From Escherichia coli (lineage in GTDB: Bacteria > Pseudomonadota > Gammaproteobacteria > Enterobacterales > Enterobacteriaceae), in assembly GCF_041248615.1 (NCBI RefSeq), contig NZ_CP158426.1: 64,000 nucleotides of DNA, one strand, 5' to 3'. Below are positions 34,901 to 37,900 of the stretch, in pieces. The position numbers were made by a program. Every line of letters begins with the position of its first letter. The first letter of the stretch is position 1.

Positions 34901-37900
34901 ACGGTATCGGTGATTCAGGCAAATCAGGGAAAAATTAATGTGATGCATAGCTATCATTCGCTGGGGCGGGTATTACGCGATGCTGGTTTTCGCTTTCCGC
35001 CGCTGATTGAGAGCATTCCTGAAGGTGGGCGAATGGATGTGAGCGCAGAGCGTTTACCTGAACTGGATGCCGATTTTGTTTTTGCAACCTGGCGCGGTGA
35101 CACCGGTGGTAAACCTCAGGATGAGCTGGCAGCAATGGAAAAAGTCATGCCGGGATGGTGTCAGTTTCTGACGGCCTGTCGTTCCGGGCGCTATGTGCTG
35201 ATTTCTCGTGAAGAGGCGATTTCTAACTCCTTTGCATCTCTGGGGCTGATGGCTGCGCAGATACAATCACAAATTGCGGGACGACCTCTACCGGAGGCTA
35301 AATGATCCAGAAAGACAAAACGCGGGTTGATATTTATGGTGAGCGTTTTCGCACTCGCGCGAGTCAGTTAACGCCTGGGTTAAGAACTGTCGCAAGCTAC
35401 ATTAATGAGCATCGTGAAGTGGTACTCGAGCAAACGGCGATGGAAATTGCGGCCACGTTGAACACTTCCGATGCCACAGTTATCAGGGCTATACAGGCTC
35501 TGGGGTTTGCCGGGCTGCGTGATCTGAAACGCACACTGGAACAGTGGCTTGGTCCAGCCCTTAGTTCCAGCGAAAAGATGTCTACGACGGTGAGTAACTT
35601 GACGAGCGATGTTAACACCGCAATCGACTTTGTTCTTGAAGGGCATTTGTATACTTGTAATGTCCTGTCAGAGCCTGAAAACCGCCACGCGCTTGCGCAA
35701 GCTGTAGCGTTGTTGGTGCAGGCACGGCAAGTCGCTATTTTTGGCATTGGCGCTTCGGGTATCCTGGCGGACTATACCGCACGACTATTCAACCGCATAG
35801 GTTTGCCTGCCACGGCACTAAACCGTACGGGTATTGGCCTTGCCGAGCAACTGATCGCGCTTCAACGTGGCGATGTTCTGATCATGATGGCGCAAAAATC
35901 TGCGCACCGGGAAGGGCTGACAACGCTTCGTGAGGCGAGGCGGCTGGGGATCCCTGTTATTTTGCTGACAAACGCGCTGGATTCACGTTTTAGCAAAGAC
36001 GCCAGTATCGTGATTCATGTTCCGCGCGGGGATGAAAAGGGGAAAACGCCACTACATGGTACGGTATTGTTGTGCCTGGAAATGATTGTTTGGTCGGTGG
36101 CTTCCGCGATGCCGCAGCGTGCGGTTAAAACCATTAAGCGAATTAACGATTTCCATCGGGGTTTGAAAACGGGAAGAAAGAATGGCTAATCTGACCTGAG
36201 GCCGGTAGCAACACCGGCCTCTTTTCAGGAATGTTAAATCCCCGGTTGCAGAATACGGATATTCATCTCCAGCACGTCGCCTTTTACGGCTTCGCTGTAC
36301 GCCTTCATGTGCGGGGTTTGCAGATGCGCTTCAAGATGCGCGATGCTTTCCCACTGCTCAATCATCACGATAGAATCCGGTGCCATAGACTGGAAACTCA
36401 CGCCAGCAGCGCAATCCACCATTGGCGCATAGCCGTGGCAACCTTCTTCTTTCAGTACGGTTGGAACGATTTTAGCAAACTGATCCAATACTGCCTGACG
36501 GTGATGTTGACCAGGACGAGTACGGATTTCTGCGATTACGGTAAGCATGGTTAACTCCTTCTAAAGCCTGAGCTCTAGTTAACCAAAAATTTCCACAAGA
36601 TGCTTGCGATATTCTTCAGTATAGCGGGGAACATCAGGCATTTTTATCACGTCATTAGCGATAAATGTCGGCAGCGGTTCCATGCCAAGGAATTGGTTTG
36701 CTTTATGGAACGGCAGATACACACCGTCAACGCCAACGCCGTGGAAGAACTGATCTTTTTCGGTGAAGGCTTCCATTGGTGCGTTCCAGGTCAGAGAAAG
36801 CATATATTTTTTGCCCTGTACCAGGCCGCCGGAACCGTATTTTTTCGACGGATCTTTGCGGGTACGACCATCGCTGGCATACAGCGTCCCGTGACCTTCG
36901 GTGAATACATCATCAATGTATTTTTTCACTGTCCACGGCGCGCCCATCCACCAGCCTGGCATCTGCCAAATCACCACATCAGCCCAGAGAAAGTTTTGTA
37001 CTTCCGCTTTGACATCGTAGTCGCTGTCGGCGCGAACGATGCGGACATCATGCCCGAGGTCGCGCAGTGTGCCATCCGCGACTTCGGTCAGGGTGTCGTT
37101 CAGTTGACCATTGGAGTGGGCGAATTTTTTCGCGCCGTTGATAATCAGGATGTTGCTCATTTTTTAACCTCAAGGTGAGACGTTTGTCGACTATAGTACG
37201 TCACAGAGCGGTACGGTGAAATTAGCAAAATGTGCAAAGTCTTTTGCTAATTTAGCAAAAGTCTGATCTTGCTCTGACTCACCGATGCAGGATAAATATT
37301 TTCTGAAAATGACAATACTGATAGCAATTTCTCATCATTCCAACTAGCACAGGGTTAATTTACAACGTTGGTGTGGACTTTCTGCGAGTTGATAATTGTG
37401 GTGATGCTGCCAACTTACTGATTTAGTGTATGATGGTGTTTTTGAGGTGCTCCAGTGGCTTCTGTTTCTATCAGCTGTCCCTCCTGTTCAGCTACTGACG
37501 GGGTGGTGCGTAACGGCAAAAGCACTGCCGGACATCAGCGCTATCTCTGCTCTCACTGCCGTAAAACATGGCAACTGCAGTTCACTTACACCGCTTCTCA
37601 ACCCGGTACGCACCAGAAAATCATTGATATGGCCATGAATGGCGTTGGATGCCGGGCAACCGCCCGCATTATGGGCGTTGGCCTCAACACGATTTTCCGC
37701 CATTTAAAAAACTCAGGCCGCAGTCGGTAACCTCGCGCATACAGCCGGGCAGTGACGTCATCGTCTGCGCGGAAATGGACGAACAGTGGGGATACGTCGG
37801 GGCTAAATCGCGCCAGCGCTGGCTGTTTTACGCGTATGACAGGCTCCGGAAGACGGTTGTTGCGCACGTATTCGGTGAACGCACTATGGCGACGCTGGGG

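What the first reader, a model, noticed from the sequence alone, without database searches (positions are those of the whole stretch)
37219..37262. Array of overlapping perfect palindromes upstream of mdaB
About 60-100 bp upstream of the mdaB start the sequence reads AATTAGCAAAA-TGTGCAAAGTC-TTTTGCTAA-T-TTAGCAAAAG. Three 9-10 bp half-sites alternate in orientation (TTAGCAAAA / TTTTGCTAA / TTAGCAAAAG), giving two overlapping inverted repeats. This looks like an operator for a dimeric regulator in the mdaB-ygiN promoter, or a leader hairpin; I cannot assign the binding factor.
Basis: seen in the sequence. Interest (0 to 1): 0.3.

Follow-up and report, generated by a model that had tools for sequence, protein, structure and literature searches.

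The report
LysR-type operator in mdaB promoter
The palindromes upstream of the quinone reductase gene mdaB are a deeply conserved regulator-binding site that closely matches the footprinted site of the Neisseria regulator CrgA, which points to its uncharacterised E. coli counterpart YafC as the missing factor, with a MarA/SoxS/Rob site laid over one end.

Summary
The repeats are real (window 37219-37262, upstream of mdaB, which lies on the minus strand). Their perfection is a minority allele: T at 37248, in 218 of 5425 E. coli genomes.

Across 83 distinct enterobacterial mdaB promoters, a 44-bp block sits at a fixed distance from a conserved -10 hexamer: ATTATTGC-N7-GCAAAAGACTTTGCACATTTTGC. 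N7 is free.

I read it as a LysR-type operator. It has a T-N11-A dyad (TTGC-N7-GCAA) near -66 and a second TTGC-N7-GC unit 21 bp downstream. Orientation and spacing match the DNase footprint of N. meningitidis CrgA, which activates the neighbouring mdaB.

CrgA's close E. coli homologue is the uncharacterised YafC. The same box occurs at yafC's own start and upstream of the adjacent dkgB, again 49 nt before a -10-like hexamer, in E. coli and Dickeya. A matrix trained only on mdaB sites finds these boxes and the CrgA site.

The promoter-proximal repeat also forms a class II marbox (GCACATTTTGCTAAT), consistent with mdaB's published mar-regulon membership.

A hairpin or terminator reading is not supported. 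There are no binding data and no mapped start site.

This is a new member of a known kind, of moderate interest.

The parts
37239..37262 (-). Distal dyad (RBS-type site): ACTTTTGC-TAAATTA-GCAAAAGAC. Core TTGC-N7-GCAA at 37244-37258 is a T-N11-A motif. Centre is about -66 relative to the predicted start.
   Evidence: sequence; arms have information content of about 2 bits over 83 distinct promoters, while N7 has 0.2-0.5 bits; kept in Shimwellia and Tenebrionibacter, where parC rather than qseC is upstream; matches CrgA footprint site 2 (15.3 bits).
37223..37237 (-). Proximal unit (ABS-type site): TTGC-ACATTTT-GCTA, 21 bp downstream of the distal dyad. Centre is about -45.
   Evidence: invariant GACTTTGCACATTTTGC; an equivalent T-rich/TGC element in the dkgB and Neisseria mdaB promoters at the same offset, within 1 nt.
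37221..37235 (-). Marbox-like 15-mer GCACATTTTGCTAAT, forward orientation, centre about -43 (class II position).
   Evidence: 1 mismatch to gcannwwntgnnaaa; 11 of 15 matches to gcactaattgctaaa; listed as a predicted mdaB marbox in S2 Table of PMC12052159; mdaB is described as MarA-activated.
37211..37231 (-). Possible second proximal subsite: ATTTTGC-TAATTTC-ACCGTAC. The left arm is a good copy of the box arm, 9 bp after the previous one. Speculative.
   Evidence: TTTTGC at offsets 17-22, ATTT at 25-28 and ACCG at 30-33 are conserved. Assignment as a subsite is inferred by analogy with the LysR sliding-dimer model (from memory).
37215..37220 (-). Weak -35-like hexamer TTCACC (4 of 6), 16-bp spacer.
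   Evidence: Read from the sequence. Moderately conserved as (C/T)ACC. The consensus scan finds no sigma-70 promoter here, as expected for an activator-dependent promoter.
37193..37198 (-). -10 hexamer TACTAT (TAnnAT in all genera), 49 nt after the G of GCAAAAG.
   Evidence: T49, A50, A53 and T54 are near-invariant at fixed spacing; the same offset holds in K-12 dkgB (CATAAT), Dickeya dkgB-like (GATAAT) and Neisseria mdaB (CACAAT).
37185..37185 (-). Predicted transcription start (A of a conserved CA). Not mapped experimentally.
   Evidence: (C61 and A62 conserved), plus inference from the -10 position.
37248..37248 (.). Strain polymorphism in the variable centre of the dyad. It makes both palindromes perfect in this strain.
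36234..37160 (-). The regulated operon: mdaB (36579-37160) and ygiN (36234-36548).
   Evidence: Co-transcription was shown in Salmonella (PMC2653508).

Best explanation
The repeats are the operator of the mdaB-ygiN promoter. It has two superimposed layers.

Layer 1 is a LysR-type regulator site of the CrgA kind.
- A distal recognition dyad, (A/T)TT(A/T)TTGC-N7-GCAAAAG, is centred near -66.
- One or two proximal activation subsites (TTGC-N7-GC near -45; possibly TTTTGC-N7-ACCG near -36) abut the weak -35.
- The most likely factor is YafC, the E. coli homologue of Neisseria CrgA.
- A YafC oligomer would hold both sites. On sensing an electrophile or quinone-derived signal, it would reposition on the proximal subsites and recruit RNA polymerase.
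- The same box at yafC's own 5' end would give autorepression, and the box upstream of dkgB would give co-activation.

Layer 2 is a class II marbox (GCACATTTTGCTAAT, centre about -43) laid over the proximal subsite in Enterobacteriaceae. Through it, monomeric MarA, SoxS or Rob would activate mdaB.

What is shown:
- the repeats themselves;
- deep conservation of the block;
- its fixed geometry relative to the -10;
- its sequence identity with the CrgA footprint;
- the boxes at yafC and dkgB.

What is inferred:
- YafC binding;
- the inducer;
- the repositioning step;
- the transcription start site;
- marbox occupancy.
For: 1. Footprint. Over 83 distinct mdaB upstream regions, ATTATTGC | N7 (variable) | GCAAAAGACTTTGCACATTTTGC | ATTT is near-invariant. 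TAnnAT lies exactly 49 nt after the G of GCAAAAG.

2. The dyad stays with mdaB whatever lies upstream: qseC in most genera and O157:H7, ygiZ in K-12, IS1 here, parC in Shimwellia and Tenebrionibacter. In those last taxa the dyad is kept while GCAC is lost.

3. The published 63-bp CrgA DNase footprint in the N. meningitidis crgA-mdaB intergenic region (PMC2724274) contains ATTATTTC-ATTTGAC-GCAAAAG followed by TTTTTGC. In a Neisseria contig it has the same orientation towards mdaB, with CACAAT at offset 49-54 and the ATG at +85, against +87 in enterics.

4. YafC is the closest E. coli homologue of CrgA: 59% identity per PMC2724274, E = 4e-113 to PDB 3HHG over the full length, 80% identity in residues 1-66 and 86% in residues 18-60.

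5. A matrix trained only on mdaB sites scores 20.3 bits upstream of K-12 dkgB (adjacent to yafC) and 16.4 bits at the yafC start. It scores 19.7 bits at Lelliottia yafC. In Dickeya it scores 22.5 bits (dkgB-like) and 20.8 bits (yafC). The CrgA site scores 15.3 bits. Background is 9.8 bits at most in the 64-kb window outside mdaB, and one independent sequence at 16 bits or more in 560,090 masked positions.

6. Within E. coli, both the mdaB and dkgB boxes vary only in N7. All three boxes are near-universal in 5426 genomes.

7. Marbox. There is 1 mismatch to the search pattern. The site is listed in S2 Table of PMC12052159. Three papers describe mdaB as MarA-activated. N7 of the proximal unit is invariant, unlike N7 of the distal dyad, which suggests a second constraint there.
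Against: - No binding or expression experiment links YafC to mdaB or dkgB in the searchable literature.
- YafC ChIP-exo exists, but that paper derived no YafC motif and its targets sit in a supplement I could not read. A ChIP-seq-based model for yafC failed to train.
- The mdaB start site is unmapped. Primer extension failed in Salmonella. The TSSs paired with the two predicted marboxes in PMC12052159 (U00096.2 3170452 and 3170500) are not my predicted start.
- MarA ChIP-seq papers for E. coli and Salmonella never mention mdaB.
- The degenerate marbox pattern occurs at chance frequency (30 observed, 23.7 expected).
- In one Salmonella lineage the yafC locus looks degraded (TTG start, no box, dkgB lost), yet Salmonella mdaB promoters keep most of the block.
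- The -66 and -45 positions rest on a predicted start site.
Confidence: 0.7

Rival explanations
1. The block consists only of marboxes: a class II site plus one or two degenerate upstream sites in either orientation, bound by MarA, SoxS or Rob (RamA in other genera). No LysR-type regulator is involved.
For: - The proximal 15-mer fits the marbox.
- The dyad interior GCTAAATT(A/C)GCAAAA also passes the two-mismatch rule and is listed in S2 Table of PMC12052159.
- TTTTGCTAAA is shared with the mar operon's own marbox, TTTAGCAAAACGTGG.
- mdaB is described as MarA-activated.
Against: - In the distal site, the marbox-critical positions 3 and 9 fall in the freely varying N7. The constrained bases are the symmetric outer arms.
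- The dyad survives where GCAC is lost.
- The dyad occurs upstream of dkgB, at the yafC start, and in Neisseria, where the sequences next to the box do not fit the marbox pattern.
- The pattern is at chance density.
- MarA ChIP-seq papers do not mention mdaB.
Confidence: 0.1
2. The dyad is bound by a different symmetric regulator: another E. coli LysR paralogue of the CrgA cluster, YdcI, or a MarR/SlyA-type protein. YafC is not the factor.
For: - E. coli has about 45 LysR paralogues.
- The Escherichia half-sites TTAGCAA and TTGCTAA resemble SlyA half-sites (from memory).
- No YafC motif has been published.
Against: - The box sits at yafC's own 5' end and upstream of yafC's neighbour dkgB in three genera.
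- The box matches the footprint of the YafC homologue CrgA.
- The YafC DNA-binding domain is 86% identical to CrgA's over residues 18-60.
- The SlyA-like letters lie in the variable centre and are Escherichia-specific.
Confidence: 0.1
3. The repeats are the binding site of the response regulator QseB (PreA), encoded immediately upstream in most genera. QseB would activate mdaB-ygiN directly.
For: PreA over-expression raises mdaB 7- to 32-fold in Salmonella, and the authors hypothesise a PreA site in this promoter (PMC2653508).
Against: - The dyad is kept where qseBC is not adjacent.
- The dyad is also present in Neisseria and at dkgB and yafC.
- OmpR-family regulators normally use direct repeats about 10-11 bp apart (general knowledge). 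The conserved element here is an inverted repeat.
- The strongest induction was in a preAB deletion strain, where read-through from the PreA-activated preA promoter is an alternative (my inference).
Confidence: 0.05
4. The palindromes act as nucleic-acid structure: a hairpin terminating qseC transcription, or a leader or attenuator hairpin of mdaB.
For: - As RNA, the 61-nt stretch folds at -15.4 kcal/mol, z = -3.6 against shuffles.
- preB and mdaB are not co-transcribed in Salmonella despite a 106-bp gap.
- The centre of the dyad shows a slight excess of complementary pairs: 82 of 198, against 62 expected.
Against: - No terminator-like site is found; the stem is AU-rich with no U tract.
- No Rfam family matches.
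- Interior pairs are complementary in only 36-45% of sequences.
- The dyad persists when qseC is not upstream, and K-12 qseC has its own hairpin.
- The block lies upstream of the conserved -10, at fixed spacing to it.
Confidence: 0.03

Closest known systems
CrgA operator in the Neisseria meningitidis crgA-mdaB intergenic region (Ieva et al. 2005; Sainsbury et al. 2009, PMC2724274)
   Same: - The target gene is the same (mdaB; the listed Neisseriaceae MdaB, P0048, is 79% identical to E. coli's).
- The box is the same: ATTATT(G/T)C-N7-GCAAAAG, followed 10-11 nt later by TTTTGC.
- The orientation towards mdaB is the same.
- The -10-like hexamer is at offset 49-54, and the ATG at +85 against +87.
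- The regulator homologue YafC is 59% identical overall and about 86% identical in the helix-turn-helix region.
   Different: - In Neisseria the regulator gene is divergent from mdaB, and the same sites autorepress it.
- In Enterobacteriaceae yafC is about 2.9 Mb away, with its own separate box at its start codon and a further box upstream of dkgB.
- The enteric proximal site additionally carries a marbox.
- Binding is demonstrated for CrgA and only inferred for YafC.
Generic LysR-type promoter architecture (recognition site with T-N11-A near -65, plus an activation site near -35; e.g. BenM/CatM ATAC-N7-GTAT sites 21 bp apart, from memory)
   Same: - A T-N11-A dyad sits at about -66.
- A second 4-N7-4 unit lies 21 bp downstream, next to a weak -35.
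- The conserved stretch is 44 bp, close to the typical 50-60-bp LysR footprint described in PMC2724274.
   Different: - The regulator is not encoded next to the target.
- Positions rest on a predicted start site.
- CrgA is octameric rather than tetrameric, so the stoichiometry at this operator is unknown.
[quoted passage not shown]
   Same: - The site has forward orientation.
- Its centre is within -36 to -55 and it overlaps a poor -35.
- It has 1 mismatch to gcannwwntgnnaaa.
- The gene is reported as MarA-activated.
   Different: - The site is embedded in, and co-constrained with, a LysR-type activation site.
- The RE2 'AAA' is not conserved between genera (TAAT, TCAT, ACAT), while the spacer is invariant.
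- mdaB is not mentioned in the MarA ChIP-seq papers I could read.

Membership tests
LysR-type regulator operator (CrgA/YafC type) | T-N11-A motif within an inverted repeat | tested here: met
   TGC-N7-GCA lies inside TTGC-N7-GCAA at 37244-37258. The arms are invariant and the centre is free across 83 promoters.
LysR-type regulator operator (CrgA/YafC type) | Recognition site near -65 and activation site next to the -35 | tested here: inconclusive
   The centres are about -66 and -45 relative to a start site predicted from the conserved TAnnAT and CA. No mapped TSS is available; primer extension failed in Salmonella.
LysR-type regulator operator (CrgA/YafC type) | Sequence match to an experimentally footprinted site of the same regulator subfamily | tested here: met
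   CrgA footprint site 2 scores 15.3 bits with a matrix trained only on enteric mdaB sites. The window background maximum is 9.8 bits. Orientation and spacing are the same in a Neisseria contig.
LysR-type regulator operator (CrgA/YafC type) | Autoregulatory box at the regulator's own gene, and boxes at neighbouring targets | tested here: met
   TTTTGC-N7-GCAAAA lies directly before the yafC ATG in E. coli and Dickeya, and as TTTTGC-N7-GCAAC in Lelliottia. ATTATTGC-N7-GCAAAA lies upstream of dkgB in E. coli and Dickeya, with the -10 at the same offset.
LysR-type regulator operator (CrgA/YafC type) | Physical binding of the cognate regulator, and regulator-dependent expression | not testable with these tools
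   No paper in the library reports it. The YafC ChIP-exo target list is in a supplement that is not held.
Class II marbox (MarA/SoxS/Rob) | Match to the asymmetric marbox consensus | tested here: met
   GCACATTTTGCTAAT has 1 mismatch to gcannwwntgnnaaa and 11 of 15 matches to gcactaattgctaaa. The pattern alone is at chance density: 30 observed against 23.7 expected.
Class II marbox (MarA/SoxS/Rob) | Forward orientation, centred between -36 and -55, overlapping the -35 | tested here: inconclusive
   The site is forward and centred at about -43 by the predicted start. The TSS paired with it in S2 Table of PMC12052159 is a different one.
Class II marbox (MarA/SoxS/Rob) | Activator binding and activator-dependent transcription | not testable with these tools
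   The gene is described as MarA-activated. The primary papers are not held. mdaB is absent from the MarA ChIP-seq papers I read.
Intrinsic terminator / leader hairpin | G+C-rich stem followed by a U tract, or a stem kept by compensatory changes, lying within a transcript | tested here: not met
   No terminator-like site is found. Interior pairs are complementary in only 36-45% of sequences. The block lies upstream of the conserved -10.

The most novel reading that the evidence does not exclude
YafC, an orphan E. coli regulator, would be the enteric counterpart of Neisseria CrgA. It would be a quinone- or electrophile-responsive LysR-type activator of a small detoxification regulon: mdaB-ygiN, dkgB and itself.

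The operator sequence and the operator-to-promoter geometry would have been conserved since before the beta/gamma-proteobacterial split, or else moved together with mdaB.

In Enterobacteriaceae, a MarA/SoxS/Rob marbox was then written on top of the activation site. Two unrelated activator systems would therefore share, and possibly compete for, the same 20 bp.
Probability: 0.55. Interest if true: 0.55.

Novelty: new member of a known kind. Interest (0 to 1): 0.45.

Why it matters
- mdaB-ygiN is a widely cited stress-inducible quinone-detoxification operon. In Salmonella its start site could not be mapped (PMC2653508), and in the literature I could search its regulation is credited to MarA.
- The analysis gives a concrete, cheaply testable assignment for an uncharacterised E. 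coli transcription factor. It names a box, three sites and a predicted regulon of NAD(P)H-dependent reductases.
- Two genome-wide binding studies published no YafC motif: one derived none, and in the other the yafC model failed to train. This analysis supplies a candidate.
- It may explain why a yafC allele improves tolerance to biomass hydrolysate side products (known here only from the title of Shi et al. 2016).
- It offers a natural example of a LysR activation site overlaid by a marbox.
- It also shows that the 'perfect palindrome' that drew attention is a neutral strain polymorphism, not the functional signal.

Tried and rejected
- **Rfam search of 36900-37500.** Only sub-threshold chance hits (MicA, E = 0.11).
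- **Promoter and terminator scan.** No terminator and no consensus promoter for mdaB.
- **Hairpin co-variation in the 7-bp centre.** A weak excess only, far below what a conserved stem would show.
- **qseC terminator idea.** Rejected because the dyad is kept where parC, ygiZ or IS1 lies upstream, and because K-12 qseC has its own hairpin.
- **Second genomic copies of the 51-bp block.** None; it is single-copy.
- **TTGC-N7-GCAA core alone.** At chance density in the window, so only the extended box is informative.
- **YhaJ, PtrR/YneJ, YgiV/STM3175 and QseB as factors.** There is no literature link or motif match. E. coli YgiV lacks the DNA-binding domain.
- **SlyA-like reading of TTAGCAA/TTGCTAA.** Rejected because those letters lie in the variable centre.
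- **MarA ChIP-seq papers and their held supplements.** mdaB is not mentioned.
- **Primary papers not held.** These were Martin & Rosner 2002, Ieva et al. 2005 and Shi et al. 2016.
- **YafC ChIP supplements not held.**
- **Acinetobacter and another Neisseriaceae mdaB locus.** Neither has a divergent LysR gene, and the one TTGC-N7-GCAA core match (L090 905) lies far from mdaB. I did not pursue these.
- **Whole-genome scan of E. coli with the box matrix.** Not possible with the region-fetch cap.
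Full report
**Context.** The window matches the chromosome of E. coli NRZ14408 (NZ_LT599825.1) at 100%. mdaB (36579-37160) and ygiN (36234-36548) are on the minus strand. The reported interval 37219-37262 therefore lies 59-102 bp upstream of the mdaB ATG. Beyond it, an IS1 copy (37400-38167) replaces most of ygiZ, and qseC follows. In K-12 an intact ygiZ is divergent from mdaB. In O157:H7 and most other Enterobacteriaceae, qseC ends a few bases from the repeats.

- The repeat finder reports a 12/12 inverted repeat with an 11-nt gap (37219-37230 / 37242-37253). It also reports a 13-nt, 92% repeat with a 1-nt gap (37238-37250 / 37252-37264).
- TTTTGCTAA occurs three times here in alternating orientation. 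The window has four copies in all, against 0.81 expected.
- Perfect inverted repeats this long are expected 0.13 times per shuffled window.
- The perfection is allele-specific. K-12 and O157:H7 have one mismatch, at the base equivalent to window 37248. The K-12 51-mer is in 4956 of 5425 E. coli genomes, and the window's 51-mer is in 218.

**Conservation.** I fetched mdaB loci from 80 species of Enterobacteriaceae and a few more distant ones.
- Read in the mdaB direction, the upstream regions share ATTATTGC (ACTTTTGC in Escherichia and Salmonella), then 7 unconstrained bases, then GCAAAAGACTTTGCACATTTTGC, two variable bases, and ATTT.
- A TAnnAT hexamer lies exactly 49 nt after the G of GCAAAAG, and a conserved CA lies 7-8 nt later.
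- Information content is about 2 bits in the arms and 0.2-0.5 bits in the centre.
The real signal is TTGC-N7-GCAA with extended arms, plus two further direct TTGC copies.
- Fixed spacing to the -10 across genera indicates a protein site that works with RNA polymerase.
- With the start at the conserved A (window 37185), the dyad is centred near -66 and the next TTGC-N7-GC unit near -45.

**Not a hairpin or terminator.**
- There is no terminator-like site and no Rfam match.
- The stretch does fold better than shuffles as RNA (-15.4 kcal/mol, z = -3.6), as any palindrome would. But the three interior pairs of the dyad are complementary in only 36-45% of distinct sequences.
- The dyad stays with mdaB when the upstream neighbour is ygiZ, IS1 or parC.
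- K-12 qseC has its own hairpin.

**The marbox layer.**
- Three papers describe mdaB as MarA-activated or a mar-regulon member.
- The promoter-proximal repeat forms GCACATTTTGCTAAT. It has one mismatch to the marbox pattern gcannwwntgnnaaa and 11 of 15 matches to gcactaattgctaaa.
- It is forward-oriented and centred near -43, which is a class II position as defined.
- S2 Table of PMC12052159 lists this 15-mer for mdaB. It also lists the dyad interior, GCTAAATTCGCAAAA.
- The pattern is nevertheless at chance density in the window.
- The MarA, SoxS, Rob and RamA ChIP-seq papers I could read never mention mdaB.
- The marbox 'AAA' is not conserved between genera, while its spacer is invariant.
- In Shimwellia and Tenebrionibacter, GCAC is lost while the upstream dyad is intact.
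- A marbox alone therefore does not explain the block.

**The LysR layer.**
- TGC-N7-GCA is a T-N11-A motif. A dyad near -65 plus a second site near the -35 is the standard LysR-type layout, as summarised in PMC2724274.
- That paper reports that N. meningitidis CrgA, a LysR-type regulator, activates the divergent mdaB gene. It gives the 63-bp DNase footprint. On its reverse strand the footprint reads ATTATTTC-ATTTGAC-GCAAAAG-TGTTTTCTTAT-TTTTGC. This is the enteric block with one arm substitution and one extra spacer base.
- A metagenomic Neisseria contig carrying crgA and mdaB shows the box oriented towards mdaB as in E. coli. CACAAT lies at offset 49-54 and the ATG at +85, against +87 in enterics.

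**The factor.**
- PMC2724274 names E. coli YafC as CrgA's close homologue, at 59% identity.
- I confirmed a full-length match to PDB 3HHG (E = 4e-113). Identity is 80% over residues 1-66 and 86% over residues 18-60.
- In K-12, the yafC locus carries the box twice. One copy is TATTTTGC-AACAGGA-GCAAAA, directly before the yafC ATG. The other is ATTATTGC-CAGAATC-GCAAAAATC upstream of the adjacent dkgB, with CATAAT exactly 49 nt after the G.
- Dickeya has both boxes, and Lelliottia has the yafC one.
- A matrix trained only on mdaB sites scores these boxes at 16.4-22.5 bits and the CrgA site at 15.3 bits.
- The background for that matrix has two parts. Outside mdaB, the best score in the 64-kb window is 9.8 bits. 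In 560,090 further positions, one independent sequence, inside parE, reaches 16 bits.
- A divergent E. coli dkgB promoter allele differs in N7 but not in the arms.
- The dkgB and yafC box regions are present in 5327 and 5418 of 5426 genomes respectively.

**Mechanism (inferred).**
- A YafC oligomer would occupy the distal dyad and a proximal subsite.
- The two direct copies CTTTGCACA and TTTTGCTAA, 9 bp apart, could be alternative positions for the proximal dimer. This would fit the LysR 'sliding dimer' model (from memory).
- A signal generated by quinones or electrophiles would shift it and allow polymerase recruitment at the weak -35. CrgA-dependent mdaB induction by alpha-methylene-gamma-butyrolactone is reported.
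- MarA, SoxS or Rob would use the overlapping marbox as an independent, possibly competing, input.
- The products fit one theme: MdaB (quinone reductase), YgiN (quinol monooxygenase) and DkgB (methylglyoxal / aldo-keto reductase).

**Limits.**
- Nothing here shows binding.
- YafC ChIP-exo exists, but no YafC motif was derived and the target list is not held. A ChIP-seq-based model for yafC failed.
- No paper in the library links YafC with mdaB or dkgB regulation.
- The start site is predicted, not mapped.
- One Salmonella lineage has a degraded-looking yafC locus, yet Salmonella mdaB promoters keep most of the block.

**Verdict.** The 'operator' reading is supported in refined form, and the 'leader hairpin' reading is rejected. 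The feature is a new member of a known kind. It comes with a specific, testable assignment for an uncharacterised regulator.

Noticed in passing
window 37400-38167 and flanks: An IS1 copy (768 bp) sits about 135 bp upstream of the operator. About 350 bp of K-12 sequence is absent here, covering most of ygiZ and its promoter. Among 5426 E. coli genomes, only NZ_LT599825.1 matches 36200-38300 in one piece.
   Followed up: partly
window ~38243-38272: A hairpin, CTATGAGAG-N12-CTCTCATAG followed by ATTTT, lies between the qseC stop and the ygiZ remnant. It is probably the bidirectional terminator of the convergent qseC/ygiZ pair, and it is also present in K-12.
   Followed up: no
window ~32200-36190 (L001 1-2990): An island encoding a FecCD-type iron-siderophore ABC transporter and a MurR/RpiR regulator lies next to ygiN. 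It is absent in K-12, where parE follows ygiN, and present in O157:H7.
   Followed up: no
loci L012-L081, offsets +33 to +48 from the G of GCAAAAG: The -35/-10 spacer of mdaB promoters carries species-specific G+C-rich palindromes. Examples are Klebsiella/Raoultella CCCCGC-N3-GCGGGG and Citrobacter CCGAT-C-ATCGG. Their function is unknown.
   Followed up: no
L091 (Salmonella enterica) 2380-3450: yafC has a TTG start, no box at its 5' end, and a G-to-R change in the conserved VESGSFS motif. dkgB is missing. A remnant of the dkgB box (CTATTGC-CAGAAGA-GCAACGA) sits right after the yafC stop, next to tRNA-Asp and 5S rRNA.
   Followed up: partly
L016 3546-3569 and L006 3468-3491: A 16.5-bit match to the box matrix (AATATTGCGGTATTCGCAAAATTC), identical in S. 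enterica diarizonae and E. albertii, lies about 1.4 kb downstream of mdaB. By its position it appears to fall inside parE, but I did not check the gene map of these loci. It is probably a conserved coding sequence matching by chance.
   Followed up: no
K-12 L002 3424 and 3472 (U00096.2 3170452 and 3170500): S2 Table of PMC12052159 pairs the two predicted mdaB marboxes with plus-strand TSSs, one just upstream of the dyad and one just after the marbox. Neither has a recognisable -10. If real, the first would put the whole block in a K-12-specific transcript. I derived the coordinate offset of +1971 by matching 15-mers.
   Followed up: partly
K-12 L088 3883-4122: The box at the yafC start scores best on the strand pointing towards the divergent yafD-yafE genes, which encode an endonuclease/exonuclease/phosphatase-family protein and a methyltransferase and lie about 230 bp away. 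They might be further YafC targets.
   Followed up: no
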